Source of the DNA: Narcine bancroftii
Taxonomy: Eukaryota
Direction of reading: 5' to 3'
DNA: 64,000 bases
Assembly (NCBI RefSeq): GCF_036971445.1
Contig: NC_091472.1
Coordinates: 129,084,001 to 129,148,000, forward strand
The translations under genes and the position numbers were made by a program. The notes beneath the pieces were generated by a model. It saw only the letters and a program-made list of their open reading frames with translations, made no database searches and was not told the DNA's origin. Positions 41,001 to 62,468 of the stretch are shown in pieces; the stretch's first letter is position 1; every line of letters begins with the position of its first letter.

Positions 41001-42169
41001 GCCACAACTGCTCGGTGTGTGCTGAATGCAAGCCGCATTTTTACAGACCGGATAGAGCCCAACTGATTAAGGAAACCTGTCCCTTCGAACGTCTTAGTAT
41101 GGACTTCAAGGGTCCCCTCCCATCCAATAACAGGAATCTCAACTTCCTGAATATAGTGGATGAGTATTCCCGGTTCCCGTTTGTTATCCCTTGTCTGGAC
41201 ATGACTGCAGCCACGGTCATCAAGGCACTCCAGACCATATTCACGATGTTTGGATATCCCAGCTACATACACAATGACAGGGGTTCCTCCTTCATGAGTC
41301 AGGAGCTGCAACAGTACCTACAGGCAGTGGGGATAGCCATGAACAGAACTACTAGCCACAACCCCCGCAGGAATGGGCAAGTGGAGAGGGAGAACGGTAC
41401 AATCTGGAGACCAATTCTGTTGCCCTCACGTAAAAAGGGATCCCTGTCTCCCAGTGGCAAGAGGTACTACTGGAAATGCTGCTTGCTACCAGGTCCCTGC
41501 TGTGCATGGCTACAAATACCATCACCCAAGAGATACTCTTCTTCTCCTAGGAGGTCAGCATCCGGAACCACTATGCCAATCTGGCTAACGACACCAGGGC
41601 TGGTATTTCTTCACAGACATATTAGACCCCACAAGACAGATCCCCTGGTGGAATGAGTGCATCTGGTACATGCAAACCCACAATATGCATTTGTGCGGTA
41701 CCACGATGGGAGGAGGACATGGTGTCAGTACAAGACCTGACCCGTGCAGGGTACACTAATACTGATCAGGTAATCCCAGAAGAACCAGATGGTCAATTGA
41801 CACAGCACCCATCCACATCCCAGGGTTTTGATGTATTCTCTCCACCACCCCCCCCCCTCACCCAGTACCAGTCAAGCACTGGCGGCAGTCAATCCCACAG
41901 AGATCTCGCCAGCAAGGAATCCACCCCAACAGGAAGCGAAGGGCTCTGTAACCAAAATTCCACCGACATAGGTACACAGTCCTGTGAGTTCAACACGGGA
42001 ACAACAGGGGCCTCGCCCAGCACCTCAGAAGTCATAGCGGATCACGAGACCACTGGACGAGCTGAACCTGTGATGAACACTATGAACAATGTATATATGT
42101 AATAAAGTACAGTATATGCTCCACGTCGCCACATCACCCTGCCGGGTTTTATCTCAAAGAAGGGGTGAA

Positions 42170-42606: not shown

Positions 42607-44428
42607 ATTTGATGCAGCTATTCTGTTTCCTTTACCCAGATATGGGTCAATCAAAGTGACCTTTCCTTTGGTCATGATGGTTCACTAATTTCCCTGGCAG
42701 GGAGAATCGGCCGAATTGTCCATTTCACACAGTCTTTGCACCTCGGTGTTGATCAGATGCTGGTGGTCAATAATGAAATCCTGTTTCTTTAAATGTCCCA
42801 CTCACATGGCTCTCACCACCTGTTTTTTTCTGGGTAATCAACCATTGTTCTTTCTCTTCCTCCAGAGTATCAACTTTGTTTATAGTCAGCACTTGATAGT
42901 GCCATCCAGTCTCACCACAACTGAATGGTTGCAGCCTGGATGAACCCTTAAAGTGACAGTCATACTAAATGAATCTCTGGAGATTGAGAACAAGTATTAG
43001 TAAGAGATTACTGGGAGAATAAAGAAACACAAGTCCATGTTCACATTTAGTACTAGTGGGGAACAAGATACGGAAATGACACATCGACCAGTTAAAGAGC
43101 AATCGAGCACCTCATTTCTGTTCTGATTGTGAATGATCCCCCGAAGTTCCATTTTGGGCACAATCTGACTATGATGCCCCTGAGATAATCCCGGTACCAG
43201 TTGTGGAGACACCTTCATTGAGAGCTGCAGAGGAGCAAGATGCTGGACAAATACAACCAGTAGTGCCAGGCAGCAAGAACTTATCTGCTCCAGAAATAGT
43301 GAAAAGTTGTACCTCGATTCAGTGTTCTTCATCCCCGAGAAGATCCAAGAGAGAAAAACATCATCCAGAGCATCTAAAAGAGTATGTGGAGTGACTTAAA
43401 GACTTTATTTAGTACATATGGGCTGTGACTTAAAGACTTTGTATGTTTCCAGTTAATACATTTTAAGTTAGATAGCGTGATATCTATAGTTACCATTAGT
43501 GGAAGTTATGCTTTAAATGAACTTTATACTTCACCAGTAAGCACAAAACTTTTTTGGAGGGGGAAGTGTTACGGGAACATGCGTGTGCGTGTGACATCAT
43601 ACATCAGAGTAAAGATGCTTACTGCTTCTTTGGAGTGAGGTTATTTAAAAGGGGAAAATACACACCACCTTCCACGTTCCTTTACTGTTATGTTTCATTG
43701 ATACTTCAGAAGAAGAGCATTGTCCATTTTGTTCTGCATACCAAAGGTCTTGCACCAAATATGCTTTTAGTCTGGCAAAGGGGCAACCATCTTATAGCGG
43801 CCTGCATTTCTTCAAATAAGCAAAGTGAACCTCTTTTCCAATGTCCAGACCTGCTGCTGTCAGGAGGGACTTTCTTGTACTCATTGCAATATGGTATTTT
43901 GGCAGAATACTTCCTCTGATTTTTTTCAAGCACTGGTGCAATGCGAGCTCAGTAGCCAAGTCATCTAATTGGATGATTTATTAATGCCTTTAGTGAAAAC
44001 AGTCTCCACGAAGTATCTGGTCAATTTTATTTCCCCTCGGATGCTGCTGGGCCGACTGAGCAATTTTTCTTTACTGCTGCAGATTCCGACATCCTTTGTA
44101 TCGTATCCACCCGTTTCGGGTGAGTGCACCCAACACCCTCCTGTGGGACCCTCCCAGGAAGAAGGTATGCCAATTCACTTTGGTCTCGGCGTCGCAACCC
44201 TGCGCTTCCAGCAAACCTGGACTCTGTGGAGAGCTGCCAACTGCAGATGGCCATGGGCTTCGTGGAAGCAGAGCTCGAGCTCCAGCGGGACAGCTCCCAA
44301 CGCCTGTCCAAACCCTTCAACCACCGCCTTGCGGGGGGGGGGGGGAGAGACGTCACGCTTCCTTTCAATGAAGGGTCCATTATTTTTTCCCATTGCCCGA
44401 ATCCTCCCCCGTGCACATTTAAATAACA

Positions 44429-44669
44429 GACCGCGCGTGCCGCCACCCGGCCGTTGGCCGCCGCGTGCTCGGGCCTCGTGCTGAGGTGACGCAGTTCCAG
44501 CTCGGGGACCGCGCGTGCCGCCACCCGGCCGTTGGCCGCCGCGTGCTCGGGCCTCGTGCTGAGGTGACGCAGTTCCAGCTCGGGGACCGCGCGTGCCGCC
44601 ACCCGGCCGTTGGCCGCCGCGTGCTCGGGCCTCGTGCTGAGGTGACGCAGTTCCAGCTCGGGGACCGCG
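44429..44669. repeat. GC-rich tandem repeat, 3 x 78 bp plus 7 nt, in a CpG island
   Basis: Unit gaccgcgcgtgccgccacccggccgttggccgccgcgtgctcgggcctcgtgctgaggtgacgcagttccagctcggg starts at 44429, 44507 and 44585; copies appear identical. Confidence 0.97.
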
Positions 44670-44779
44670 ACGGCCGTGGGCGCGGCGAGAGCTTTCGCGC
44701 TGCGCAGTCGGTGAGACCAACTGTCCGGTGTTTTATTTATTATTTTTTATATATCAGTTGTTGTGCCATCTTTTCGAGA

Positions 44780-45038
44780 ATGAGCGAGGCAAACTCGTTT
44801 GCGTTAACCATTTGGCTTGTGGATGGGAGCCGAGTCACGGTGAAGGCGAGGCCGAGCGACACGGTGGAGGACGTGAAAGTGAGTGTGATCGGGGAGATTG
44901 AAAGGAGCACCTCGCACCGGGGGCGTTGGACCCCCGAGGGGGTGAATCTTTTTTCTCGTCAGCTGCCACTGGCGGATGACGACACGGTCGCAGAGTGTGG
45001 ACTTGGACCAGAATCTGTCGTTGTTCAACAAACCAAAA
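44780..45038 (+). CDS. Probable first coding exon of an unidentified gene encoding an N-terminal ubiquitin-like (beta-grasp) domain
   Basis: MSEANSFALTIWLVDGSRVTVKARPSDTVEDVK...VNLFSRQLPLADDDTVAECGLGPESVVVQQTK aligns with ubiquitin [25 protein letters not shown]...LEDGRTLSDYNIQKESTL. It lies in a CpG island and ends at donor AAA A|gtatgt (phase 1); unspliced, the frame stops at 45085. Confidence 0.72.
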
Positions 45039-46132
45039 GTATGTCCATATTTAATTGTTTCTCCACGTTATGGGGGTGGGGCTAGAGTTATGGGATAGTC
45101 CATTACAGGTTCATAAGGTTAAAAAGACACCCACTGGTGTTTTTCTAGCTACAATAAATGATTAATGAAGTGCAGTGGAACTCGGACTCCTATTATTCAT
45201 CAGGTCAGATACAATTTGCTGTTATTGTAATAAAACAGAAATGCAATATTCAGTCTCCCTTAAGGCAGAGATCCCGTTAGGGTTTTGCAGTCAGAGGAAG
45301 AGCAGCAAAAGCCACTCCCGCAGAGTCCCTGGCTGGGTGATTCGCCTCCAGTGTGCCCACAGCCTTTGCAGCAGCACGAGACTTCCGCTTAGCTCAAGCC
45401 ACCGGCCAACTTGAGCCCAGATCCAAGCCTCCTGCTCGACAATGAAGCCTTCAGTGTCCAGGGCCCTATGGGACCCTTTCTTGCCCACACCATCCTCTCG
45501 AATCCAGGTTCCGACGTCTGATTCTCATGAGCCAGCCTGATGCGAGTCCTTTGATCTCGAGTGACCAGCAGCCTTGCTTGCCTCGCTAGCAGCTGTGCAC
45601 ATCCTCGAGTTCGAGACCCCCCTCATTAATCCACCATCATGGTTACTGTCCTAAGGATGGTCTCCTCCCGTCGGAGGGAGAACCCAAAGACTTCCATGTG
45701 AATGTTGGAGGTCTGATAAGTTTGCAAATGATATATGAAAGTTGGTGATATTTTGGGTAGCAAAGCTGCAGCAGGACATGAAATTTTAATCCTGACAATT
45801 GCAAAGTTGTGAACTTTGTAAAAACAAATGGGTGTCTTCCATATATAATAAATGGCAGGGTGCCAAGGTGTGTTGATAAACAGACCATAGTTTCCTGAAA
45901 GTAGTGCTACAGTTAAAAAGTATGGTGAAGGGGGCATATGATGTAATTACTATCATAGGTCTGGGCATGAAATCGAAAAATTGGGATGTTAAATTCACCA
46001 TCTCTCCTGAGAATGGCGTGAACTTGATCTGAGATGTATATGAAAATATACCTGTAATATATGCCATTAAGGAGAGTGCAAAGGACATTCATCAGAATAT
46101 TTCCTGGGTTGGAGTAATTTAATTATGAAGAG

Positions 46133-47252
46133 GTTTTTAAAATTTTAAAATATTTTTCACACTATGAACCATATTAACCAAAATGCACACAAACATTTCC
46201 TTCTTGAATATACACAGTGTCATTTTCTCCCCTTTTTCCCCCTTCCCTCCTTCCCACCCCCCTCCCTACCCACTCAACATTCAACATATACAATAAACCC
46301 ATTAAACAATGTCCTCACACAATTAAAATATACAAGAAAATTGTGTCATCTACTTTTACACACTGGGTCAGTTCATTTCGTCGTCTTCTCATTCTATCAT
46401 TTTAGGGGGTGGAGGTCCGCGGTAGGCCCACTCTGTTGTGTTCCATGTATGGTTCCCAAATTTGTTCGAATACTGTGACTTTATTTTTTAAATTACGTGT
46501 TATTTTTTCCAATGGAATGCATTTATTAATTTCTATGTATCATTGCTGTACTCTCAGGCTTCTGATTTCCAAGTTGACATTATACATTTTTTTGCTCCAG
46601 CTAAGGCTATCATAATAAATCTTATTTCTGCTTCATCCAGTTTGAGGCCTAATTCTTTAGTACTTGTATTACTTAGAAGAAAGATCTCTGGATTTTTTGG
46701 TATGTTGCTTTTTGTGATTTTATTTAATACCTGATTTGGATCTTCCCAAAATTTTTCCACTTTCTCACATGCCCAAATTGCATGTACTGTTGTTCCCGTT
46801 TCCTTCTTACAGCAAAAACATCTATCTGATACTGTTGGGTCCCATTTATTTAACGTTGGGGGCGTGATCTATATCCTGTATAACCAATTGTATTGTATCA
46901 TGCGTAACCTCGTGTTTATTGTGTTTCCCATAGTTCCGGAGCATAGTTTTTCCCATTTTTCATTTTTTAATCCTTGTTTAGATCTTGTTCCCACTTTTGT
47001 TTGGGTTTACAGCTTATTTCATCATTCTCTTTCTCTTGCAGTTTGATGTACATGTTTGTTATAAATCTTTTAATTATCATTCTGTCTGTAATCACATATT
47101 CAAAGCTGCTTCCTTCTGGTAACCTCAGCCTGCTTCCCAATTTGTCCTTTAAGTAGGTTTTCAGTTCGTGGTATGCAAACATTGTACTGTAAGTTATACC
47201 ATATCTGTACTTCATTTGTTCAAAAGATAAATTATTTCCCAAAAAACAATTG
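46133..47252 (-). mobile_element. L1/Tx1-like LINE 3' fragment (same family as 62469-64000)
   Basis: KNPEIFLLSN, LRLPEGSSFEYVITD; TSD ATTATGAAGAG at 46122-46132 and 47253-47263. Confidence 0.9.
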
Positions 47253-47539
47253 ATTATGAAGAGAGGTTTGTTTTCCATGGAGCAAAAGAAGAATGACCTC
47301 ATTAAGATCTTTTTCTTATGGTGGTGCTGTCAAAAAGTTTTAAAAAAAAGATTGTTGGTTTCAGATCAGAGGAACGTGTTTTAAAGGAGATTTGAGGGGA
47401 AGGCTTTCTAAACAGAATGGTTGATATCTGGTATTCCTTACCAGATTAGGTAGTAGAGTCAGATACAATCACTATATTTAAGAGATGTTCAGATAAATGC
47501 TTGTATAGGCGAGGAATTGCAGGATTATGGCCTCGGTGG

Positions 47540-48345
47540 ACTGCTGGCACTATGATTGAAGGACCTACATGGGCTGGGCACTACTAGAGACTTGGCTTAA
47601 GGGCACCTGGTGTCAGAACCTGGATTTGAGAGGCAGTTGAAAGGAAAAAGGGCTCCTGAAGGACCTCTGGCACTGAAGGCTTTCTATAGTTGAGAGGACC
47701 GATGAGAGGTTCTGTAGAAGAGATTGAGTATCCTGGATGGTATGTTGCCTTCCTGTCCAAGATATCTCAGATCAAGTTCATGCCATTCTCAAGAGAGATG
47801 GTGAGCATGTAGGGACCACTGCTGTGGTAGGAAGCTGCAAGGAGAGTTCAGGGAGTTTGGAGCTTGGTTAAAGGATAGGTCCTGCAGAGTTTGTGATCTC
47901 AGGATTGCTACCCGTGTCACATGCTAGTGAGATTAGAAATAGGAAGATAATGCAGCTTAACACGAGGCTTGAGACATGGTGCAGGAGGGTGGCCTTCAAG
48001 TTGCTAGATCACTAGGTTCCCTTCCAGGGAAGGTGGAACCTGTTCCGATGGAACCGTTTTCACCTGAACTGAAGGGGGACTAATATCGTTGTGGCAATGT
48101 TTGCGAGTGCTGCTCTGGGTGGTTTAAACTAGATTTACAGAGGCATGGGAACCACAGTGCCAGAGTAGATAGGGGAATGGAGTGGGAAACAGATGAAGTG
48201 AAGATTGCATGTAATGGCAGAAGTCAAACGGTTGTACGTGATGGCAGTTTTCTCAGGTGCATATATTTCAACGTAAGACATATTGTAGGAAAGACAGCAA
48301 GCTTAGAGTGTGAATTGGCACATGGAATTATGACATTGTGACCAT
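47540..48345 (+). mobile_element. CR1-type LINE 5' region remnant (ORF1 into the start of ORF2)
   Basis: gtgatctcaggattgctacccgtg, cacctgaactgaagggggactaatatc and tgcatatatttcaacgtaaga blocks resemble CR1 ORF1/ORF2 junction sequence. Confidence 0.6.
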
Positions 48346-49275
48346 CATGTGGTATTTACTTGGGAGTCGGACTTCTACATAACCATTATTCACTTCCTGG
48401 CTACCGCCAAGGCGACTTTCACGAACTGAATTTTATATTTGAACAGTTGAAAACTCTCATTTCCAATATCTTTCAAAATACACAACTCCAGATATTGTGG
48501 AAAATCCACTTTTGTAATTTTTTTCAGAATGTTTCCCAGTTCTTCCCAGAAGGGTCTCACCTTTATACATAGCCAGGTGGAGTGGACAAGGGTCCAATCT
48601 CTACACCACACCTAGAGCACGTTTCTGAAATTTCTGGCTTTGATTAATTTTTGTGGTATGAGGTTCAGCTGGAGGAAAAAGTTATTGCATCAACCTGTAT
48701 CTGGCATTAATGACCCCATTTACACTGTCCAGACTCAGGTCTTGCTACCACTCTTCATTGATTGTTGTGCCCAATTCCAACTCCCATCTCTCCCTGACCT
48801 GTGTAAGCCTGGCTTCAGTCCCTCACTTTGGTCTATGTAATATATCTGAGAAATAAATTTGCACACGTTCCTTTGTTGAATTAAAATCTCCACATTATTT
48901 GACCTAGGCAGGGTCATAGATGGTCCTAATTTTTCCCCTTTAAAAAAATCTAATTTGCAGATGGCAGATCACATTTGGTTCTCAACTGCTTGAATGACAC
49001 TAGTTTCCTTTATTTGTAACAATCCTTGATACATCTGATCTCCTTCTGGCACCAGGTGTCAAGCATCTTATTACCTAGAGTCAAAGGCATTTTAGGAGAA
49101 TTCCCCACCTTCCATTCAATACATTGATTTAATTTTTGCCATATCTGAAGAATATGCTTTAGTATGGGGTTATCTATTTTATTTAAAATTAATTTGGTGT
49201 CCTATTTGTATACAAATTCTCCTGCCATCTTTTCACCTATTGCATCTAGTCCAATTTATGCCCAGGAGGAGTTGA
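48346..49275 (-). mobile_element. Old L1/Tx1-like ORF2 C-terminal fragment
   Basis: TLVHSTWLCIKVRPFWEEL...VALAVARK, homologous to ORF 50803-51471. Confidence 0.75.
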
Positions 49276-50581
49276 GGGAGAACTTCACTCTGAAGGTGGT
49301 GAATCTTGAATGTGGACTCGAGTTTAATTTTTAAGAAAAATTTGGATAGGTGCATGGATTGGAGGGATGTGGAGGGCTATGGTTAAGGTGCAGGTCAGTG
49401 GAATGGCATGGATGAGAAGAGCCAAAGGCCTGTTCAGTGATCGTATCAGATGCTTGTATCTGGAGCTTGGTTTCAACAGGAACCTCTGGCTGGAGGAGAA
49501 TACATGGACACTCAGTGGCTATGGCAAACAAATGTTGAGGTATATCATGTACATTACATTTTTTGTATTATGTGACAATAAAAGGAACCTTGAACTTTGG
49601 TGCATGCAAATGGGATAGTCTAGATCAGAAAAAAGATTGACATGGTGGATTGATGGGCATGTTTCTGTACTGTATAACTAAATCTTGTGATGATAATTTC
49701 TTACTCTAAACAGTTCTGGAGTTTTATCCTTTCAATGGAAAAAATATAATGATAAGAAAGTACCAGCCATGTTTGGTGAAGGAAATATTTCTGTTACTGG
49801 CTCTGTCAGGGAAACAAAAATTAATATATTTTACATTTTAGTTGAAAGGTATTGAAAATGTTGTACATAATAGGAAGTTGCTTTCTCAAAGTTCTGCACA
49901 GGGCTCAAGATCAAATTTTGTCTTTGCTTAAAAAAAACCTTCGTGATATTTGGATAATTGGTTTAGGCAGGGTGAAGCTAGGAAGAGTATAAAAGCATCT
50001 TGAGTGCAGAAGGAAAAATAAAGAGTGTTGGGGACAGGAAGTGAGAGTTTGAGGAAGAGAAAAAAATAAAAAAGAGGATAGGAACATAACAAATAGGAGC
50101 AGGAGAAGGCCATCTGGCCTGTCAAACCTGCTTTGTCATTTATTAAGATGATGACTGACCTGGCCATAGTCTCAACTACATCTACCTTTTTCTCCATAAT
50201 CCTCATTTCCCTTACTATGCAAAGATATTTGGAACTCTGCCTTAAGTAAATGTAATGAGGTAGCTTCTACTTGTTCTTTGGGCAGGAATTCCATAGATTT
50301 AGTAATCCCTGGGTAAAATAATTCCTCCTCATCTCAATCCTAAATCTGCTTCCTTGAATTTTGAGGCTTTGTCCCATTGTTCTCGTTTCTCCTATCAGTA
50401 GAAATCACATTCCTGCCTCTATCCTATCTATCCCTTTCATAGAACCATAGAACACTACAGCACAGAAAACAGGCCATTGGCCCTTGTAGTTTGTACTGAA
50501 ACATTACTCTACTAGTCCCATTGACCTGCACCCATTCCATAACCCTTCAGACCTCTTCCCATCTATGTATCCATCCAAATT

Positions 50582-53500
50582 CTTTTTTTGAAAAGTTTAT
50601 TTAAAATTTTACAAAATACAAATGCAAAATACAAAAAAAATTCAAGTCTACCCCCTATACCCCCCACCCCAATATCCCACCCCTTACTATCCCTCCATCC
50701 CTCCACCCCTTCGAGCTTAACATACATAAAGTATTTATAAACAAACAGTGGGTTAGGTTGCAATACATCAATTCAACAATCCAAACAAGAATTTTAAAAA
50801 TATTACTTAACATCTAAATTCATACATTTCAAATATGGAGTCCACATTTTTTCAAAAAAAGAGTAATTATTTTGCAAATTATATGTAATTTTTTCTAAAC
50901 ATAAACATGATTGATGTTTATTATGCCATCTCTGTATACTCAACTCCACATCATTTTTCCAGGTGACTGCTATACATTTCCTAGCCACTGCCAAACTTAA
51001 TCGAATAAATGCAATCCAAAATTTATCCAAGCGTGCTGTTAATGGATTCATATAATCAAATAAACACAACCATAGAACAACATACAAATCTATTTGGAAT
51101 AAATCTCGCAAAAATTTTGTAATCTTGTCCCAAAAAGGTTTAACCTTTACACAATTCCATGCAGAATGAACCAAACTACCTATCTGATCTCCACACCGAA
51201 AACACAAATCAGAATCACTAGACCCAAATCTCTTTAAATTTTCAGGAGTTAAATATAACTGATGCAGAAAATTATAATTAACTAAACTATAATGCACATT
51301 AACTAATTTTGTAATGCTATACAAACATAGATCTGACCATTCTTCCTCAAAAATAGAAGTAGATAACTCCTGTTCCCATTTATATCTTATTCTCAATACA
51401 CCTACCTCCTTCATTTTTACCTGTAACAACGAATACATTTTGGAAACAAACCCTTTCTTTCCCTTATCCATAAGTAATATTTCAAACTTTGATTGTGTTG
51501 GTAATATAATTTCCTGACCAAAACAATTCTTTTAAAAAAATCACATACTTGATGATAAGCAATGTATTTTGTGATATTCTAAATTTCTCTCCAAGCCTAT
51601 CAAATGAATGAAATAAACCTGCCTCAAAATAATCTTCAATTAATATCAAACCTTTTGAGTCCCATTCCTTCAAATAAAGATTATGAATAGAGGAAGGAAT
51701 CAACTGATTTTGATATAGCAGAGTTTTAATTGAACATACATCCTTCGAACCTATAAATTGGTTCCATTGACTCCATACTTTAAGCAAATAACTCAATACG
51801 GGTAACTTGTATGTTTGTAAAAGCAATAAATTCCATTTGTATTTAAAATGGTATATTGAACTTTCCCATATCTGATGTAAGCCCACATTGGTGGTTGATC
51901 AATATCAATAACAAACAATCTACTAATACTGTGCTGCCTGGTAATAATTTTGAAAATGTGGTAACTGAAGACCTCCCAAATCATATGCCCATGTCAATTT
52001 TTGCATTGATACGAGATAATTTACCTTTCCACAAAAAAGAACGTATCACTTTATTTAATTCTTTTTAAAATTTCCCCGCTCAGGACATGGGATTGATTGA
52101 AACAGATACTGAATACGTGGATATATATTAATTTTGATACAATTTACCCAACCAATTAATATTAATAGTAAATCCTTCCATCGATTTAAGTCAGACAATC
52201 TTATTTAACAAAGGTAAATAATTTAAACCATATAAATTCTTATCTTTCTTTGGCTTGGCTTCGCGGACGAAGATTTATGGAGGGGGTAAAAAGTCCACGT
52301 CAGCTGCAGACTCGTTTGTGGCCGACAAGTCCGATGCGGGACAGGCAGACACGATTGCAGCGGTTGCAGGGGAAAATTGGTTGGTTGGGGATGGGTGTTG
52401 GGTTTTTCCTCCTTTGCCTTTTGTCAGTGAGGTAAGCTCTGCGGTCTTCTTCAAAGGAGGTTGCTGCCCGCCAAACTGTGAGGCGCCAAGATGCACGGTT
52501 TGAGGCGATATCAGCCCACTGGCGGTAGTCAATGTGGCAGGCACCAAGAGATTTCTTTAGGCAGTCCTTGTACCTTTTCTTTGGTGCACCTCTGTCACGG
52601 TGGCCAGTGGAGAGCTCGCCATATAACACGATCTTGGGAAGGCGATGGTCCTCCATTCTGGAGACGTGACCCATCCAGCGCAGCTGGATCTTCAGCAGCG
52701 TGGACTCGATGCTGTCGACCTCTGCCATCTCGAGTACTTCGACGTTAGGGATGTAAGCGCTCCAATGGATGTTGAGGATGGAGCGGAGACAACGCTGGTG
52801 GAAGCGTTCTAGGAGCCGTAGGTGGTGCCGGTAGAGGACCCATGATTCGGAGCCGAACAGGAGTGTGGGTATGACAACGGCTCTGTATACGCTTATCTTT
52901 GTGAGGTTTTTCAGTTGGTTGTTTTTCCAGACTCTTTTGTGTAGTCTTCCAAAGGCGCTATTTGCCTTGGCGAGTCTGTTGTCTATCTCATTGTCGATCC
53001 TTGCATCTGATGAAATGGTGCAGCCGAGATAGGTAAACTGGTTGACCGTTTTGAGTTTTGTGTGCCCGATGGAGATGTGGGGGGGCTGGTAATCATGGTG
53101 GGGAGCTGGCTGATGGAGGACCTCAGTTTTCTTCAGGCTGACTTCCAGGCCAAACATTTTGGCAGTTTCCGCAAAGCAGGACGTCAAGCGCTGAAGAGCT
53201 GGCTCTGAATGGGCAACTAATGCCCATTCAAATTCTTATACTACTTATCAATAATTACACCTAAATACTTAATCTTATCTGACCATTTAAATTTAGTAAT
53301 TTGCATACAATCTGAATAGTCCTCATCAGATATAGGTAATATCTCACTTTTATCCCAATTTACTTTATACCCCAACATTGATCCATAAAATTTTAACAAA
53401 TCCTGTAAATGTTCTAAAGAATTCTTAGGTTTAGATAATATATTAACACATCGTCTGCAAATAAATTAATTTTGTACTCTCATTGCCTAACCGTAATATC

Positions 53501-55729
53501 CTGAATATTCATATTTTGTCTAATTGCCTGTGCTAAAGGTTCTATAACCAATGCAAATAAGGCTGTGACAATAGGCAGCCCTGTCTAGTTGATCTAGACA
53601 AAGTAAATACTTGAGAGATCTGACTATTTGTCACCACCTGCGCAGAAGGATTTGTATACAATGCTTTAACCCAGCCAATAAAAGATGGTCCAAATTTAAA
53701 TCTCTCTCACACTTTAAACAAAAGCCTTCTCAGCATCTAATGCTAATATCATTGGTAGATTAAGTTGCTATCGTGATGCATTAATCATTGTAAGTAATTT
53801 AGTAATATTATCAGCTGAATATCTATTTTTAATATATCCTGCCTGATCTACATGCACCAATTTTGGTTAAAAAAAATGAGCCAATCTATTTGCTACAATC
53901 TTATAATCTACATTCAATAAAGATATAGGTCTATAAGACACAACCTTCAATGGGTCTCTATCTTTCTTTGGTATGACTGTTATCAATGCTCTCGAAAATT
54001 ATTCAGGAAACAACCCCATATCTGTAACCTGCTTCAATACATTCATATATACTGGAAACAACAAATCATGAAATACTTCATAAAACTCTACTGTAAATCC
54101 ATCCTCACCAGGTGATTTACCAATTGGCATAGATTGTAGTGCCTCTTTAAGGTCAAAATCCGTAACAATTTTACATCATTCTCCTCCAAAGAAGATAAAT
54201 TCAGCTGAGACAAAAAAGTATCAATCTGTTCAATATCTACATTCTCTTCAGATGCATACAAATCTCGATTAAAAAGCATGAAATTCCTCATTAATCTCCT
54301 GTGGTTTGTAAGTGACACCTGAATTTCCCTGTATTGCATTCATTGTTCTAGAAGTTTGTTCAGTTTTCAACTGCCATGCAATACTTTATGTGCTCTTTCC
54401 CCTAATTCGTAATAACGCTTTCTTTTTTGTTCAGAGTGGTTTAAAGAGGGGGAGGGGGGTTCTCTTTTTTCCCTTTTATTCCCTTTTTTTTTTACAGTTG
54501 TATTTTAGAGTAAGGTAAGGGGCGGGGTTTTTCTTTCAATGGAGCTTTAGTGTGTCTGTGGGTTGTTGAGAATTATTTGTTAAGATAAAATGAGTAAATT
54601 GAATTTTGCGACATTTAATGTTAAAGGGATGATTCATCTGATAAAGAGGAAGCGGGTCTTGGATTATATCAAGAAGTTGAAGGTGGATATTGCATTTCTA
54701 CAAGAGATGCATTTGACAGAAAAAGAACATTTGAAATTGTAGAGAGACTGGGTTGAACATGTTTTGGAATCTTCTTTTCATTCTAAGGCCAGGAGAGTGG
54801 CGATTTTTGGTACATAAAAGGGTACCTTTTATTTTAGAATCTGTTTTTGAAAATGCTGGAAGAATTTTGAAGGTGAATTGTAAATTGTTTTCGGAAGCCT
54901 GGACTTTATTGAATTTATATGCACTGAATGAAAATGTACAATTTGTAACTGATGCTTATTTAAATTATAATCAATCAAATGAGAACATAATGGTAGGAGG
55001 GGACTTTAATTGCTGTTTGGATCCACTGTTGGATAAATCTCCAAAAGTTGTTAAGAAAACTAAGATGGCTAAAAGGGTGATAGAATTGATGGAGGAGTTA
55101 AATTTAGTTGAAATATGGCGATGTATTCATCCGACTGAGAAGGATTATGTTTTATTCTGCTCATCATGACTCATATTCTAGAATAGATCTTTTTTGGTCT
55201 CAGCTCATTTACAGGGAAGGGTTGACTATGCAGAATATAAGAGTAGAATATTGTCAGATCATTCTTTGTTGTTGATTTCTTGTGAGATTGCGGAGAAGGT
55301 TGAAATAACTTGCCATTGGAGGTTTAACGAGATGTTACTTAGACGACCTGAATATGTTTTGTTTTTGAGAGATCAGATTACATTTTTTCTGCTGATGAAT
55401 GAGAAATCAGTACAAAGTTAATTTACATTGTGAGATGCTTTGAAAGCATATTTATCAAATTATTAGTTATACAGCTAAAGTTAAAAAGCAATATACAGCG
55501 GAACTTTTGGAGACAGAGAAAGAGATTGCAGATTTAGAGAAAAAATTTCAAGAAAATGCAATGGAAGATAATAAGGTACAGTTATCTAATTTGAAACTTT
55601 ATTACAATATGAAGCAAACTTATAAATATGAGAGATTGCTTTTGAGATCAAAACAGCATTATTACGAATTGGGGGAAAGAGCACATAAAGTATTGGCATG
55701 GCAGTTGAAAACTGAACAAACTTCTGGAA
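50582..55729 (-). mobile_element. L1/Tx1-like LINE with inverted 5' part (RT and C-terminus on minus, 50582-~54419; endonuclease on plus, ~54420-55729)
   Basis: Plus part starts ORF2 at ATG 54590 (MSKLNFATFNVKG...FLQE...GGDFN...SDH); minus part has RQGC, FADD, GYKVNWDKSE and CFRC...H...C; short flanking repeat CAAATT (50576-50581 and 55730-55735). Confidence 0.88.
52244..53229 (-). mobile_element. Young 5'-truncated RTE-clade LINE inserted in the L1
   Basis: Uninterrupted 295-aa ORF differing from 14196-15083 at about 9 residues; TSD AAATTCTTAT at 52234-52243 and 53230-53239. Confidence 0.94.
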
Positions 55730-55956
55730 CAAATTATTCTTAAAATGTAAAATTGAGCCCACATTTATCGTCAGATTGTAGCTCATTCCACACTCCCACC
55801 ACCCTGAGTGAAGAAGATCCCCCTCAACCTTGTTTCACCCTAAAGCCATGTCCTCTCGTATTTATCTCTCCTAATCTAAGTGGAAAAAGCTAACTCACAT
55901 TTACTCTGTTTATACCCCTCATAATTTTGTAAACCTCTATCAAATCTACCCTCATT

Positions 55957-56463
55957 TTTTTTGAATATTTTATTTTTTATTTTCAAAGACTCAAATCCAA
56001 ATAAGCAATATATTATTTTCCAACAATAATGTATATTTTATCCCCTACCCCTCTCCCCTTCCTCCCGTCCCTTATACAAAAAAAATTATATAAATTAAAC
56101 AAATACAAAGAACAAGATATCGTTGAAGTCAAAAACCTTTAAGGGAACTTAAGAACCCAAAGAAACCTAAAATATAAAGATAAGAAACAAAATACAAGAA
56201 CATGTCGCCTGCGCCACGACCCACTTCGCTGATCTCAAGCATTCCACTATTGGTATGATTGTTGTATTCATTTTATCGAAGAGGGGTATAATTAAATCTG
56301 CGCACCCATGTGCTGCAGATAGGGATGCCACATCCTAATGAATTGGATGTAATTTTCTCCAGGGGAATACAACTCTGAATTTCTGTATTCCATCATGTAA
56401 TATTTAGTTGGGAATTGGACTTCCATGTGACTGCTATACATTTCCTTCACAAACTGAATTTTG
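55957..56463 (-). mobile_element. Short L1-like 3' fragment inserted in the CR1
   Basis: Poly-T end; WKS...CIPLEKIT-like tail on the minus strand; TSD CAAATCT(A/C)CCCTCATT at 55941-55956 and 56464-56479. Confidence 0.75.
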
Positions 56464-57859
56464 CAAATCTCCCCTCATTCTTCTACCTCCAAGGAATAAA
56501 GTCCTAACCTGTTTAATCCTTCCCTGTAACTCAACTCCTGAAGACCTGGCAACATCCTAATAAATCTTCTCTGCACTCTTTCAATCTTACTGATGTCCTT
56601 TCTGTAGTTTGGCGAACAGAACTGCACACAAAGCTCCACATTTGGCCTCATCAATGTCTTTTACAATTTCACCATAGCGTCCCAACCCTATACTCAGTAC
56701 TTTGATTTATAAAGGCCAAGATGCCAAAAACTTTCTTTATAACCATGTCTACCTGAGACACCATTTTTAGGGAATCTTTATTCTCAGATCCAAATACTTG
56801 TGTATCCAATCTCTCACAACGTGTTCCACTAATTTACCTACTACTAATGTCAGGCTCACCAGCCTGTAATTTCCTTGTTTACTTTTGGAGCCTTTTGTAA
56901 ACAACAGAATAACATGCGCAACCCTCCAATCCTCCTGTCTCTCACCCATGGCTAGGGACATTTTAAATATATCTGCTAGGGCAGCTGCAATTTCTACACT
57001 AGTCTCCCTCAAGGTCCAAGGGAATATCATGTCAAGTCTGAGGAATTTACTACCTTTATTCACTGTAAGGCAGCAAGCACCTCCTCCTCTTTAATCTCCA
57101 TATGTTCCACAACACTACTGCTTGTTTCCCTTCTTGTACAGTATGCCAGTTTCCAAGTAAGTACTGATTTAAAAAGATTGTTAAAGATCTCCCCCATCTC
57201 ATGAGGCTCCATACGTAGATGACTGCTCTGATCTTCTTTTGTCTCTTACTATTCTTTTACTTTTCGCATTCTTGTAGAAACCCTTCGGGTTTACCTTCAC
57301 ATTATCTGCCAAAGCGTATTTGTCTTTTTGTCTTCCTGATTTTCTTTTTAAGTATTTTCTTATATTTATATACTCATCTAGTACCTCCTGCTAAACACCG
57401 CTCTTCTTCTTAACCAAGGAATGTCTCCAACACCTTTCTCATTCCTCATTTAAACCCATTTGGCCTCTGCAGACGAGCCCTCTGGGCTGTCCTGTCAAAG
57501 CACAGGTGTTATATTTTCCCTAACTAGCAATGCCACTCCTCCCCTTTTCATCCCTCCCCCTCTATCATGTCGGAACCCTGGAGCTTTGAGCTGCCAGTCC
57601 TGCCCCTCCTGCAACCAAGTCTCACTTATAGAAATGATGTCATAATCCTACGTGCCAATCCATGCTCTAAGCTGAACTGCCTCTCTGACAATAAATACAC
57701 CCAAGAACATTTCTATCGCATACAAACCTTTGATTTCTGTCTATACTTGCAATCCTTGCATGATCTTTATCCTCCTCCACCTCATTCACTATCTGCTGTA
57801 ACACTAGTTCCTATCCCTCTGCAAATCTAGTTTAAGCCCCCCCAGAAAATAATTTTGTT

Positions 57860-58700
57860 TCTAAAATTGCCCTTCTCATTCTTCTGAATTCCAGAAAGTA
57901 TAGTATAGCCTCATGCAACTCAAGACTAAACTCCTCATTTCAGATATCATTATGGTGACCCTCATCTGTACCCCTCTAAAGGCAGAATATATTTTTTAAG
58001 TAAGGAGAGAACTCCAGGTGTGCCCTCATCAGCATCCTGTATGGTTGCAGCAGAATCTTTCTGCTCTTAAATTCAATCCATCCAGCAATGAAGCCAACAA
58101 AAGCCGCCTTGATTACCTGTTGCACCTGAAAACCAAACTTTTGAGATTCATCCCTTTGCATAATAGCAAATCTTTTGCCATTTAAATAATAATTTTATAT
58201 TTATCCTTCCTAATTGGATGACCTCATATTTACCAACATGATATTCCATTTGTCAGACCCTTGCCTACTCAATTAATTATTTATATCTCTCTGCAGACTT
58301 TCAGTATCCTCTTCACATTTTGCTTTTCTAAGCTGTTTAGTGTCAACCGCAAATTAAGATGCACTACATTTCGTCCCCGCTTTCAAATCATTAATGTATA
58401 TAATGAATAGTTGTGGGCCCAGCACTAGCCCCTGAGGCACTCTGCTTATCACTAATTGCCAACCAGAGGAACACCCATTTATCCCATTTCTCTTGTCTTC
58501 TTTTGATTAACCAATCCTCTATCCATGCCCATACTTTATCCCCAACTCCATGCCTCCTTATCTTATGGATAAATCTTTTGTGCGACATCTTGTTGAATGG
58601 CTTCTGGAAATTCATGTATACAACATCCATCCGTTCCCCTCTAACCAGTAAATTTATCAAACAGGGCACACCTTTCCTAAATTTATGCTATGTGCGCTTG
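57860..58700 (-). mobile_element. Degenerate CR1 RT fragment
   Basis: DVVYMNFQKPFNKMSHKRFIHKI and IEFKSRKILLQPYRMLMRAHLE. Confidence 0.8.
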
Positions 58701-59039
58701 AAAGAAAATAAGGGTGTCAAAGGGGAGGAAGGGTGGTAGGGAAAAGAATGAATGTATGAGACTTGAGAAAATAAATGGTTGAGAAGGGGAGAGGAGAGCA
58801 TGCAGTGAGAAGAATTGGATGCAATAATGATGGACTTTGAAAAGAATAGAGAAAAACAAGGATACAGGGGGAATGGGTACAGGAAGAAAAAGTGATGTAT
58901 TTGTTAGGAGAAGAGCTATTTGGCACAAATGAGTTTAGGCCCCTCTGCTTCAGCTTAAAGCATGTGTTCCTTTGCTTACTTGGCAAGATCTGAAAAGAAA
59001 AGGTGTTAATTGGATATGACTATTGTAGTGGACATTATG

Positions 59040-59520
59040 GTGTTCAGTTTCTCTGATGTAGAGGAGACCAGCTTGGCTCTGTCTGCTGCAATAGCGTTGA
59101 TCTCCCAGTGACCACCCATTTCAATTTCCCGTCCCATTCCTTTGGTTTTATGAACTGCCAGACTGAGACCACCCACAAATTTGAGGAACAATACCTCATC
59201 TTCAGTCTGGGCACCCTCCAACCAGATAGCATTAACATCAATCTCCAATTTCCATTAAACCTGTCTGTGTCTGTCTCCCTCTCCCTCCCTCTCTCCCCCA
59301 CATTTTCCTTCTGTCTCCTTTTTTGTATGTTGGCCTGGACTCCTCCCCTTACCATGCTTCCACCTTTCTCAATCTTTATTGAGACACCTGCCTGCTTTTT
59401 GCTTGTATCTTAAAGAAGTGCACATGCCAAGATGTTGGTAATATATCTTTACCTCCTATGGAGACCACCTATGTGAGCCCGGCTGAATTCATCCATTACT
59501 TAACATGTGCTTTTACAATA
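59040..59520 (+). mobile_element. Penelope-like 3' fragment
   Basis: THFNFPSHS...KFEEQYLIFSLGTLQPDSININ, homologous to the end of ORF 31178-31687. Confidence 0.75.
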
Positions 59521-60244
59521 AAATCGACACAGCGATATTGAATTTTGTCTCCAGTACTTTTGCAATGTTTGAAGTGCAGACAGTTTGAACATTGAACTTG
59601 AACTGTTTTGAAATGGGCATTCCAAACTCTGCTTGGAGAAACTGCATTATTTGAAATAATTCATTTTTAATATATTGTAAAATATGCAAGATATTTTGTC
59701 AAAACCATTAGATATGAATACAGAAAAGTGGTCTTCAGTTATCATATTGCTCTATTAATCACAATATTCTGTTTGTGTTTTACAGCTCCAGATGGATCTG
59801 GGACCATTGATTACACCAGTAATGTTTTAATTTAACTTTTTTGTTAATTTATAGCATGATATTAACGTAATGGCTTTTAAACATATGTTGGAAACATGCA
59901 CTGATGGTTTAGAGATGCCAATTATTAAACAAATCAAATGTTCTCTCCATGTTACTCTGAAATCTATAACTTGGTGTTGGGTGTCTGCAGGCTGAATTAC
60001 TAAGTCTCATATTTTATGACTTAGGAGCAAAATAGGATGTTAGATATTATGTGTGTGGTACCCAAAATAATGACTAGGTTTACAGAATTCTCCCACTGCA
60101 AAAAAAAAATTAGTAGAAAATCTCCACAGTTCGGACATCAACAGTAGAGAAAGAAATAAATTTAATGATTCAGGTTGATGACTCCTCAGAACGCAGAAGA
60201 GTTCAACGCAAATCTGAGAAAGAGTCAGTTAAAAAATAATTCTT

Positions 60245-62468
60245 TTTTTTAAACTTTATTAATAACACATACAAAATAAATGTTTACGGAAAGTACACTA
60301 AAATACTACTAATACATTTTAACTCTCACTCCCTCCCATAACCCCCTTATACAAATCTTTATATACCGAAGGACCAAAAAAAAACAAAAATTATAAGTAC
60401 TGCTGTGGAGTATATTACATCCTTAACAGAATTTTTTTTAAAATCATAATAAAACTACTTTTAAATCTATGTCTAACCCCATACATTTCAGATAAGGAGT
60501 CCACATTTTAATTAAAAAAAAAAAATCATTATGTAAATTGTTTTTTTTCCTAAATATATACAGGATTTTAATTCAGAATTCCATCTTTGAATATTCAATT
60601 CTAAATCATTCTTCCAAGTAACTGCAATACATTTCCGGGCTACTGCCAAAGCTAACCGAATAAATACCAGTTGAAAATTTTCAAGCCTCAAACTGGTTGT
60701 TAAGATTGTAAAATACCCCATTAGGAAAAATAACGGATCAAAAGTCAATTTAAATTTAAATAAACCTTCCAAAAATTCCATAATTCTCTGCCAAAAAGGC
60801 TTAACTTTTTCACATGACCAAACTGAATGTAAAAAAAAAAGTACCAACTTGCTTTCCACAATGAAAACACAGATCTGATGATTTAAAGCCATATCTTTTT
60901 AATTTCTCAGGAGTCAAATATAACTGATGTAAAAAAATTATAATTTACTTAACTATATCTCACATTAATTAATTTACATTATCTTCACACAATGTCATCC
61001 ATTCTTCCGAAGATAACAATATAGATAAATCCTCTTCCCATTTATTTTTCATTTTACATAAATCTGATTTAATCATTTTTTCTTGTAATAAAGCATACAT
61101 TTCAGAAATAAAACCTTTTCTCAATCCACCCTCAATTAAAATTACAAAATTGGGTTTTTTAGGTAAACTTAGTTCCCATCCAAAGTTATCCAATAACATA
61201 GCTCGCACTTGATAATATACAAACAAGGAGTGAGGTAATATTCCAAATTTTTCCTGAAGTCGAGCAAAAGAAAGGAACTGACCTACCTCGAAGCAATCTT
61301 CCACTAATTTAATGCCTTTCATGCCCCAATTTTTCAAGTAATAATTATTTACTGAAAAAAAGATTAATTTATTCTGGAAAAAATGGTGCCTTCACTGAAA
61401 TTTTGCCTTTACTACCAGTAATCTGATCTCTAACATACCAAATCTTCATCAAGTGCTGCAATACAAGTATATTATAGTTTTGTAAAAGAGAAGGGTTCCA
61501 TTTATAAATAAATTGATTAATAGAAAATTCAGCAATTTGTGCTAACTCAACTTTAGTCCAAATTGGAGGTTGATGTATGTCAAACATTCTATTAATAAAC
61601 TTTAATTGAGCAGCCTCATAATGATTCTGAAAGTGTGGTAATTGAAGTCCACCTAATGCATACTTCCATGTCCATTTTTGTAAAGACGCTCCAGCTAATT
61701 TACCTTTCCATAAAAATAATCTCTCTGCTGCATTTAAATCTTTTAAAGAAAGGTTTAAGAAGTACACAAGGAATAGACTGAAAAAGATATTGAATACATG
61801 GAAAAACATTCATTTTGACACAATTTACTTGTCCTATCAAAGTTAATGGTAAGTCTTTCCATTTATTCAAATCCGATTTCATTTTATTTAATAAAGGTAC
61901 ATAATTCAATTTATATACATTTTGATATTCAACATCAACCATTACTCCTAAATATTTAATTTTATTAGTCCATCGAAACCATGTAATCTGTTTACAATCT
62001 AAATAATCCTCATTTGAAATCGGTAATATTTCACTTTTATCCCAATCAACCTTATATCCTGACATTTCTCCATACTGTACCAGACGAAATTGAAGCTTTT
62101 CCAAGGATTCTTTAGGATGTGTTAAATAAATTAACACATTATCCACAGACAAATTAATCTTGTATTTCTCATTACTAATTTTAATTCCCTGAATAATAAT
62201 ATCCTGTCTAATAGGTTGGGTCAGTGGCTCAATAAGGCTAGCGACAATGGACAACCTTGCCTCGTTGACTTAGTCAAATTGAATGAAGATGAAATTTGTC
62301 CATTAGTCACCACCTTAGCTGACGCATTTTTATATAAAGCCTTCACCCAACCAGTGAAGAGTGGTCCAAATTTAAATCTTTCCAACACTTCAATTAGAAA
62401 TTTCTGCTCTATCCGATCAAAAGCCTTTTCAGCATCTAGTGCTACTATAATTGGTTGATTGGGTTGCT
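60245..62468 (-). mobile_element. L1/Tx1-like LINE ORF2 remnant
   Basis: LDAEKAFDR, RQGCPLS, SGYKVDWDKSE, GGLQLPHF, LAVARKCIAVTWK motifs with frameshifts. Confidence 0.9.

What the first reader, a model, noticed from the sequence alone, without database searches (positions are those of the whole stretch)
44780..45085. Unrecognised gene with a divergent N-terminal ubiquitin-like domain downstream of PXMP2
Seen: an intact 86-codon frame in a CpG island, ending at a good phase-1 donor. It keeps the ubiquitin pattern (LxIxLxxGxxVTVxxxPSDTVEDVK; LxDDxTVxxCGLxxESxV) but has an insertion after the helix (ERSTSHRGRW) and no C-terminal Gly-Gly, so it looks like an integral UBL domain rather than a conjugatable modifier or a ubiquitin retrocopy. 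I cannot match it to a known vertebrate UBL protein. Established: in human the next gene after PXMP2 is PGAM5, and I see no PGAM5 exon in the 28 kb after PXMP2. Inference: a lineage-restricted or mammal-lost UBL-domain gene whose remaining exons are tiny or lie beyond the window.
Basis: partly seen in the sequence, partly recalled or inferred. Interest (0 to 1): 0.7.

Follow-up and report, generated by a model that had tools for sequence, protein, structure and literature searches.

The report
Shark-and-ray CARD8 relative with ubiquitin-like cap
This is the spliced first exon of an uncharacterised shark-and-ray gene that puts a ubiquitin-like domain in front of the self-cutting module of the immune sensors CARD8 and NLRP1, but a residue needed for cutting is replaced, so the protein likely acts as an uncleavable brake on inflammasome signalling rather than as a sensor.

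Summary
44780-45038 encodes a single-copy ubiquitin-like (UBL) domain in a CpG island, spliced GT-AG to a 33-nt exon at 59786 in two sequencing runs. It opens a 43-exon, 304-kb, 1,380-codon frame matching RefSeq model XP_069792258.1 (electric ray, 'uncharacterized'): UBL, FIIND1, ~520-aa linker, FIIND2, CARD, hydrophobic tail. Models from seven other rays, skates and sharks begin with the same UBL followed by all or part of FIIND1; no relative outside elasmobranchs turned up. FIIND1 keeps the F|S cut site, but the catalytic His is Tyr in 5 of 5 species; FIIND2 (one species) has lost His, Phe and Ser. The linker has seven QT motifs of the LC8 (dynein light chain) type on separate phase-1 exons, three conserved in three species. 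The UBL is acidic and lacks Gly-Gly, K48, K63 and the V70 patch. Best reading (0.4): a non-cleaving, LC8-dimerised, membrane-anchored CARD8-like brake. Open points: whether one mRNA reaches the CARD (only one model does) and whether FIIND1 still cuts. Both folds failed; no binding was modelled. It is a new architecture in a known family, not found described in the literature searches run.

The parts
44251..45000 (.). CpG island over the promoter and first exon (CpG o/e 1.22)
44429..44669 (.). 78-bp tandem repeat, 3.1 perfect copies, inside the island; wrongly read as coding in the RefSeq model
44640..44779 (+). 5' untranslated part of exon 1 (minimum extent; the spliced contig of run X1 starts at 44640)
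   Evidence: table 8; no ATG upstream
44780..45038 (+). Exon 1 coding part: 86-aa acidic ubiquitin-like domain, phase-1 donor
45039..59785 (+). Intron 1, 14,747 nt, GT..AG
   Evidence: table 5
59786..59818 (+). Exon 2, 33 nt, phase 1-1, conserved spacer
59819..64000 (+). Start of intron 2. The gene continues beyond the window (window numbering continued; add 129,084,000 for G000:C9): exons 3-10, 79538-109710, spacer with CxxC and FIIND1 (His to Tyr at 100478, F|S kept at 100556-100561); exons 11-36, 110706-313603, 26 phase 1-1 linker exons with seven QT motifs (235214-313603); exons 37-42, 316035-326492, FIIND2 (His to Cys, F|S to L|A); exon 43, 348094-348557, CARD plus hydrophobic tail, AATAAA about 330 nt after the stop
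41099..41396 (+). Retroelement integrase fragment that the RefSeq model wrongly uses as its first exon; not part of the gene
   Evidence: (many copies genome-wide); orthologues start at the UBL Met

Best explanation
The exon starts an elasmobranch gene whose annotated product reads UBL - FIIND1 - long linker - FIIND2 - CARD - hydrophobic tail, a CARD8/NLRP1 relative that likely cannot cut itself and so likely works as a brake on inflammasome signalling rather than as a degradation-triggered sensor. Shown: the exon, its splicing to exon 2, the open 43-exon frame, UBL followed by all or part of FIIND1 in eight species' models, and the substitutions at the catalytic positions. Inferred, in order: (1) one mRNA runs through to the CARD (about 0.65); (2) neither FIIND autoproteolyses, because the His whose mutation abolishes cleavage in rat NLRP1, human NLRP1 and CARD8 is Tyr in FIIND1 and Cys in FIIND2, which also lacks the Ser nucleophile (about 0.8); (3) LC8 dimers bind the QT motifs and zip two chains into a ladder whose length can be tuned by skipping the phase-1 exons; (4) the tail anchors the CARD at an organelle membrane; (5) like engineered cleavage-resistant CARD8/NLRP1, the intact protein binds DPP9, free UPA-CARD fragments or CARD partners (caspase-1, ASC) and damps them; (6) the acidic UBL is a docking module, not a proteasome tag.
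For: Splicing. Frame: 43 exons, 42 of 42 introns GT-AG, translation identical to P0002 residues 217-1596. Domains. Orthologue models from Hemitrygon, Leucoraja, Amblyraja, Rhinoraja, two Scyliorhinus and Chiloscyllium: UBL 42-55% identical; ZU5 73-79% in the six that hold it. His site = Tyr and Glu site = Gln in 5 of 5 species with that exon. H942 mutation gives complete loss of cleavage, as for H270 and H1186 (PMC8081665, passages); E279A reduces it (PMC3210808, section 8). FIIND2 has Leu at the Phe position, as UNC5b does (PMC3210808). Cleavage-resistant NLRP1/CARD8 still bind their CT fragments and block IL-1beta maturation, and the rodent NLRP1 and CARD8 mutants still bind DPP9 (PMC11760013, passages). 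LC8 consensus [D/S]K.[T/V/I]Q[T/V][D/E] (PMC3078936 abstract) is met 6 of 6 once and 5 of 6 twice; TQT occurs 3 times against 0.23 expected (P 0.0015 in 20,000 shuffles), also 3 times in Amblyraja and Hemitrygon. For one gene: the Hemitrygon model joins the UBL to the ZU5 of FIIND2, the Amblyraja model runs from the UBL through the first three QT motifs, all 26 linker exons are frame-preserving, and no island at GC>=0.55 and o/e>=0.85 lies between exon 1 and the stop. UBL: V70 position Q/D/H/N, no K48 or K63, net charge -4 to -17.
Against: Only 1 of 8 species' models (P0002) contains the CARD, and that model is demonstrably wrong at its 5' end. Six of the other seven end at 254-940 aa before FIIND2, and the Hemitrygon model skips UPA1 and stops in ZU5-2. 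RNA support here covers only the exon 1-2 junction, from one study. FIIND2, CARD and tail were seen in one species (ZU5-2 in two). F|S of FIIND1 is invariant in 5 of 5 species, though 147 of 265 FIIND1 columns are invariant too. By eye, zebrafish NLRP1 in the supplement of PMC11258412 has Ser at the His position yet is reviewed as a working inflammasome (PMC9978379), so loss of this His may not mean loss of activity in fishes. No intact self-cleaving FIIND partner to restrain was found in G000: 3 ZU5 matches, two in this gene and one frameshifted; that search is a floor. The QT pattern was picked after seeing the sequence. The tail's hydropathy (KD 1.77 over 19 aa) is matched by a stretch inside FIIND2 (1.86). 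Nothing about function was tested.
Confidence: 0.4

Rival explanations
1. Two genes, or dominant short isoforms: UBL-FIIND1-linker is a CARD-less protein (a FIIND decoy with a ubiquitin-like cap) and FIIND2-CARD-tail is transcribed separately; the 1,380-aa product is an annotation merge or a minor form.
For: Six of seven other species' models stop before FIIND2. The merged model has a false first exon. The linker holds 34-kb and 39-kb introns, and weaker CpG-rich patches exist inside it, e.g. 290751-292000 in continued numbering.
Against: The Hemitrygon model also joins the UBL to ZU5-2, and the Amblyraja model overlaps both halves. The linker has no stop or phase break in 26 exons. The short models end at different places and their tails have no clear match in this locus (0 of 6 at E<0.2), as expected of incomplete annotation or alternative last exons.
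Confidence: 0.25
2. A tripwire sensor: FIIND1 still cuts at F|S using another base. The UBL-ZU5 fragment is bait for pathogen ubiquitin-directed enzymes or a regulated degradation handle, and its destruction frees UPA1-linker-FIIND2-CARD, which LC8 and the membrane anchor pre-cluster to activate caspase-1.
For: F|S invariant in 5 of 5 species, with a His 8 residues before the Phe in 4 of 5. The order N-terminal domain - ZU5|UPA ... CARD is what functional degradation needs (bioRxiv 10.1101/317834 abstract). Zebrafish NLRP1 appears to lack the same His (by eye). This is the only well-preserved FIIND-CARD locus found in G000.
Against: His to Tyr and Glu to Gln are fixed in sharks and batoids, and His mutation abolishes cleavage in three mammalian proteins. 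The upstream His is Cys in this species. The UBL lacks the V70 patch residue, K48, K63 and Gly-Gly and is acidic, unlike proteasome-shuttle UBLs (recalled).
Confidence: 0.2
3. A non-immune scaffold: the FIINDs have become structural ZU5-UPA units as in UNC5 or ankyrin, and the protein is an LC8-stiffened spacer or membrane adaptor whose CARD serves apoptosis or another pathway.
For: Loss of catalytic residues; Leu at the Phe position as in UNC5b; multivalent LC8 linkers act as rods or spacers in KANK1 and others (search listing); strong conservation of FIIND1 (73-79% in ZU5) does not look like an arms-race sensor.
Against: Both FIINDs and the CARD match NLRP1/CARD8, and no UNC5 or ankyrin chain reached E 0.001. 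No expression data were obtained that point to a non-immune tissue.
Confidence: 0.12
4. A decaying pseudogene or stray ubiquitin copy with no function.
For: The UBL of this species is below the Pfam cut-off and catalytic residues are lost.
Against: Spliced junction, 1,380 open codons over 304 kb, orthologues in seven species, and the only coding difference in the runs' exon 1 is synonymous (44977 T>C, GAT to GAC).
Confidence: 0.03

Closest known systems
CARD8 (human; PDB 7jkq/7jn7, 6k9f)
   Same: FIIND followed directly by a CARD, long unstructured region upstream, no NACHT-LRR; FIIND2-CARD scores 137.7 bits to 7jkq and the CARD's best PDB match is CARD8; residues after the FIIND1 cut site are S-L as in CARD8.
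   Different: N-terminal UBL, two FIINDs, LC8-type motifs, a hydrophobic C-terminal tail, catalytic His replaced in both FIINDs and the Ser nucleophile in the CARD-proximal one.
NLRP1 / NLRP1B (PDB 7crw, 6x6c)
   Same: Highest FIIND scores (145.9 bits for FIIND2-CARD, 120 bits for skate FIIND1 against rat NLRP1); RefSeq calls the Rhinoraja orthologue 'NLRP1b-like'.
   Different: No NACHT, LRR or PYD in any model scanned; a UBL sits at the N-terminus; self-cleavage residues altered.
UNC5B / ankyrin ZU5-UPA-death-fold modules
   Same: ZU5-UPA next to a death-fold domain; Leu at the Phe position of the cut site in FIIND2 as in UNC5b L677. That these modules do not self-cleave is recalled.
   Different: Sequence belongs to the FIIND branch (PF13553, PF23679); no UNC5 or ankyrin chain was among PDB hits at E<=0.001.
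Multivalent LC8 clients (ASCIZ/ATMIN, KANK1, 53BP1)
   Same: Several TQT-type motifs in a long polar linker.
   Different: No paper holding both DYNLL1 and FIIND was found in the library searched; binding untested.
Integral UBL proteins (RAD23, parkin, UBAC1)
   Same: N-terminal beta-grasp domain without Gly-Gly; TM 0.65-0.67 between predicted models.
   Different: Acidic, V70 position polar, helix-following insertion; the rest of the protein is unrelated.

Membership tests
Ubiquitin-like (beta-grasp) domain, PF00240 | Profile match and beta-grasp fold | tested here: met
   E 3.3e-5 for the exon (24.0 bits, cut-off 25.4); 5 of 6 orthologues above cut-off; Atlas structure matches TM 0.62-0.68. 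My own AlphaFold runs failed.
Conjugatable ubiquitin-like modifier | C-terminal Gly-Gly | tested here: not met
   Absent in 8 of 8 species; the domain continues into exon 2.
Proteasome-shuttle UBL (RAD23/ubiquilin type) | L8/I44/V70 hydrophobic patch (feature recalled) | tested here: not met
   Aligned to a ubiquitin unit from P0014: L8 = V/L/A, I44 = F/L/A/M, V70 = Q/D/H/N; net charge -4 to -17. Sequence alignment only.
FIIND proteins (CARD8/NLRP1) | ZU5-UPA FIIND domain | tested here: met
   PF13553 and PF23679, two stretches each; PDB hits NLRP1 and CARD8.
FIIND proteins (CARD8/NLRP1) | C-terminal CARD on the same polypeptide | tested here: inconclusive
   CARD present in the open 43-exon frame, but only one species' model includes it and no RNA linkage was obtained.
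FIIND proteins (CARD8/NLRP1) | F|S autoproteolysis site | tested here: inconclusive
   Kept in FIIND1 in 5 of 5 species; replaced by L|A in FIIND2.
FIIND proteins (CARD8/NLRP1) | Catalytic His (rat H942, human H1186, CARD8 H270) | tested here: not met
   Tyr in FIIND1 in 5 of 5 species, Cys in FIIND2; role of the His from PMC8081665.
FIIND proteins (CARD8/NLRP1) | Self-cleavage, DPP8/9 binding, caspase-1 activation | not testable with these tools
   Needs biochemistry.
NLRP1 | NACHT and LRR domains | tested here: not met
   No such Pfam hit in P0002 or six orthologous proteins.
LC8/DYNLL client | [D/S]K.[T/V/I]Q[T/V][D/E] motif in a disordered segment | tested here: met
   One 6-of-6 and two 5-of-6 matches; the three TQT sites are conserved in three species. 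Disorder inferred from composition only.
LC8/DYNLL client | Physical binding to LC8 | not tested
Tail-anchored membrane protein | Single hydrophobic helix at the extreme C-terminus | tested here: inconclusive
   KD 1.77 over P0002 residues 1574-1592 of 1596, one species only; a stretch inside FIIND2 scores 1.86.

The most novel reading that the evidence does not exclude
Sharks and rays have rebuilt the CARD8 tripwire: a ubiquitin-like domain fused to the N-terminus serves as built-in bait or handle, FIIND1 cuts without the canonical His, and the freed fragment carries an LC8 ladder that clusters a membrane-anchored CARD. This would be a natural vertebrate case of an integrated ubiquitin decoy on an inflammasome sensor, and LC8 would scaffold an inflammasome.
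Probability: 0.18. Interest if true: 0.82.

Novelty: new variant of a known kind. Interest (0 to 1): 0.57.

Why it matters
NLRP1 and CARD8 signal by cutting themselves and having their N-terminal half destroyed. Here the best-preserved FIIND-CARD locus found in an elasmobranch genome has a ubiquitin-like cap, a duplicated FIIND, apparently disabled cutting sites, LC8-type motifs and a possible membrane anchor. A published survey scored CARD8 as absent in the great white shark and listed only divergent 'guard-like' proteins (PMC11258412 supplement). The gene gives a direct test of whether self-cleavage is ancestral and required in FIIND signalling, whether a FIIND can cut without its His, and whether LC8 can organise a CARD platform.

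Tried and rejected
Structure prediction failed twice: Leucoraja P0067 without alignment, mean pLDDT 35.5; UBL-FIIND1 with a 15-row alignment that held misaligned rows, pLDDT 34.9. No fold search was run, and active-site geometry and possible zinc binding by the CxxC motifs stay unexamined. Complex prediction of LC8 with the best QT peptide was not available: no verdict. A search for proteins of 877-2793 aa with the UBL and spacer found only P0002 itself among 397 candidates, so no second full-length model was found. A metagenome scan with the ZU5-2 exon found no relative. PF23679 found nothing in G000 although the exons exist, so family searches there are floors. No holder on record as RNA was listed; reads were laid only on 44001-64000, so no junction beyond exon 2 was examined. 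dN/dS was not computed because no orthologous DNA was available. The Atlas feature search for the UBL gave only scores <=0.80 (lead: TINCR-type UBL; not used); for UBL-FIIND1 the top hit was a CARD8-like cluster at 0.91 and none of the 10 rows shown (of 30 hits) carried a ubiquitin family. Rejected: ubiquitin retrocopy (intron-bearing, single copy, orthologues); the RefSeq integrase-plus-repeat N-terminus (multi-copy retroelement; orthologues start at the UBL Met). Of the 60 representatives, 54 were set aside as multi-repeat ubiquitin-like proteins: their best single domain scored <=27.7 bits against >=123 for orthologues on a profile built from the orthologues. Literature: ten searches were run; six were aimed at this architecture or its distribution and showed no description of it in the listings (FIIND + cartilaginous: 1 unrelated review; DYNLL1 + FIIND: 0); four were for background. 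Subscription papers and bioRxiv supplements were not searchable. Earlier scan notes had nothing on this locus or sequence.

Full report
OBSERVATION. An ATG at 44780 opens 86 codons that end at a phase-1 GT donor after 45038. No other ATG lies in the 380 nt upstream. The region is the strongest CpG island in 664 kb of this contig (o/e 1.22 against 0.35 over 464 kb) and holds a perfect 78-bp repeat in 3.1 copies. Pfam gives ubiquitin at E 3.3e-5, 24.0 bits, slightly under the curated 25.4. The exon is single-copy in G000. Contigs from two of three runs laid (one study; RNA is the tool's guess) join 45038 to 59786 across GT..AG, with 33 nt on the far side, the length of exon 2. One contig starts at 44640. 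Its only coding difference in exon 1 is synonymous.

THE GENE. The 86 residues match 100% inside XP_069792258.1, named by its source 'uncharacterized protein [Narcine bancroftii]', 1,596 aa (P0002). I fetched 600 kb downstream and mapped it. From the window's ATG there are 43 exons over 304 kb, all 42 introns GT-AG, and the spliced frame equals P0002 residues 217-1596 with one terminal stop. In window numbering continued past the end (add 129,084,000 for G000:C9): exons 3-10 at 79538-109710, exons 11-36 at 110706-313603, exons 37-42 at 316035-326492, exon 43 at 348094-348557. The model's first 216 residues (an integrase fragment with many copies genome-wide, plus the tandem repeat) are an annotation error, since orthologues start at the UBL Met. 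In 1,380-aa numbering the architecture is: UBL 1-86; conserved spacer with CxxC; FIIND1 about 165-415; a linker of about 520 aa from 26 small exons, all phase 1-1; a second Cys pair and FIIND2 about 975-1225; CARD 1237-1317; hydrophobic stretch 1358-1376. FIIND1 and FIIND2 are 37% identical and share intron phases, so they are a duplication. PXMP2 lies upstream on the same strand with POLE head-to-head (names from recalled motifs). No PGAM5 or ANKLE2 motif was seen in 664 kb (weak).

DISTRIBUTION. A phmmer search of 1.84 billion representatives gave 60 hits. Six had one N-terminal stretch over the whole domain (E 1.8e-19 to 1.7e-12); five are elasmobranch records and one is an unnamed protein nearly identical to the skate N-terminus. 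The other 54 are multi-repeat ubiquitin-like proteins. With cluster look-ups, models come from Hemitrygon, Leucoraja, Amblyraja, Rhinoraja, Scyliorhinus canicula, S. torazame and Chiloscyllium. All seven begin with the UBL and continue into all or part of FIIND1. Identity to this species is 42-55% in the UBL and 73-79% in ZU5 where present. No chimaera, bony fish or tetrapod protein appeared, within the sensitivity of an 86-aa query.

ONE GENE OR TWO. Only P0002 reaches the CARD. The Hemitrygon model joins the UBL to the ZU5 of FIIND2 but skips UPA1; the Amblyraja model runs from the UBL through the first three QT motifs; the other five end earlier, at different points. The linker has no stop or phase break and no strong internal CpG island, though weaker CpG-rich patches exist. 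My RNA evidence ends at exon 2. I put one full-length mRNA at about 0.65.

CATALYTIC SITES. Aligned to rat NLRP1 (7crw), human NLRP1 (6x6c) and CARD8 (7jkq), FIIND1 keeps F|S, but the His (rat H942) is Tyr and the Glu is Gln, in 5 of 5 species with that exon, shark and batoid alike. FIIND2 has Cys for His and L|A for F|S, and keeps the Glu. Mutating H942, H270 or H1186 abolishes cleavage (PMC8081665, passages seen). E279A reduces it, and Phe-296 corresponds to Leu-677 of UNC5b (PMC3210808, passages and section 8). Against reading this as dead: F|S is invariant, although 147 of 265 FIIND1 columns are too. By eye, zebrafish NLRP1 in the supplement of PMC11258412 has Ser at the His position and is reviewed as a working inflammasome (PMC9978379, passages). 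Whether it self-cleaves was not shown in what I read (PMC12436146, passages).

LINKER, UBL AND TAIL. The linker has three TQT and seven [TVIL]QT motifs, each on its own exon. TQT: 3 against 0.23 expected, P 0.0015; [TVIL]QT: 7 against 0.78, reached in 0 of 20,000 shuffles. The pattern was chosen after looking, but the three TQT sites recur in Amblyraja and Hemitrygon, and the first meets the published LC8 consensus at 6 of 6 positions (PMC3078936, abstract). The UBL fold is supported by Atlas structure matches to RAD23-, parkin- and UBAC1-type domains. It lacks Gly-Gly, K48 and K63, has a polar residue at V70, and has net charge -4 here and -10 to -17 in orthologues, so a plain proteasome tag is unlikely (the patch's role is recalled). 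The last 23 residues look like a tail anchor (KD 1.77), seen in one species only.

MECHANISM. Functional degradation needs a cut FIIND so that destroying the N-terminus frees UPA-CARD (bioRxiv 10.1101/317834, abstract). With both sites likely disabled, the protein resembles engineered cleavage-resistant CARD8/NLRP1, which bind free C-terminal fragments and block IL-1beta maturation, and in CARD8 and rodent NLRP1 still bind DPP9 (PMC11760013, passages). I therefore favour an LC8-dimerised, membrane-anchored brake with the UBL as a docking module (0.4). A weakness is that no intact self-cleaving partner was found in G000: the third ZU5 match, on C21, is frameshifted. The search is a floor, and a divergent FIIND-CARD protein like great white XP_041069175.1 was not searched for. 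Rivals: two genes or short isoforms (0.25), a tripwire that still cuts (0.2), a non-immune scaffold (0.12), pseudogene (0.03).

NOVELTY. The domains are known, and automatic models exist as 'uncharacterized' or 'NLRP1b-like'. By the defining catalytic His it is not a CARD8 or NLRP1 proper, but it derives from that family. Six full-text searches aimed at the architecture or its distribution showed no description of UBL-FIIND, a tandem FIIND-CARD with tail, or LC8 motifs in a FIIND protein; I saw only the listings for most hits, and subscription journals and bioRxiv supplements were not covered. PMC11258412 (passages, section 5 and part of the supplement) scores great white CARD8 as absent and notes a second 'guard like' protein, XP_041065155.1, which may be the orthologue (unchecked). 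PMC8195603 (passages) lists other FIIND fusions, not this one. Two earlier scan notes describe other FIIND-type genes in other genomes (unchecked, context only). Verdict: a real, spliced, conserved gene; a new variant of a known kind; interest 0.57.

Noticed in passing
G000:C21:89628373-89641100 (-), loci L129 and L141: A second, divergent FIIND-like locus. Its ZU5 exon matches in two frames 14-20 nt apart (frameshift or assembly error). The next exon keeps the His and Glu positions and has L|S at the cut site; a UPA-like exon lies 12 kb on.
   Followed up: partly
window 41099-41396 and 44430-44779: RefSeq model XP_069792258.1 starts with a retroelement integrase fragment spliced to the 78-bp promoter repeat; its first 216 residues are very likely spurious.
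   Followed up: yes
window 44429-44669: Three perfect 78-bp GC-rich copies in the promoter or 5' UTR; 100% identity suggests a recent expansion.
   Followed up: no
G000:C9:129168097-129168167 and 129400035-129400099: Each FIIND is preceded by an exon with a Cys pair (CDIC; CPCK), conserved in orthologues; possibly a metal site with ZU5 cysteines. Not testable because the folds failed.
   Followed up: no
G000:C9:129247331-129266950 (P0002 765-844): A block within the otherwise polar linker is well conserved with skates and is hydrophobic and Cys-containing, with no Pfam match; it may be a small unnamed folded domain.
   Followed up: no
P0066, P0071 (skate isoforms): Rhinoraja and Leucoraja each have an annotated isoform that replaces the UBL exon with another first exon, so UBL-less forms may exist.
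   Followed up: no
window 3659-35417: POLE (minus strand) and PXMP2 (plus strand) head-to-head as in human, but no PGAM5/ANKLE2 motif within about 630 kb downstream, so the locus may sit at a synteny break (recalled motifs).
   Followed up: partly
PMC11258412 supplement, NP_001410790.1: Zebrafish NLRP1 appears by eye to have Ser where mammalian NLRP1 has the catalytic His, which raises the question whether fish NLRP1 self-cleaves.
   Followed up: no
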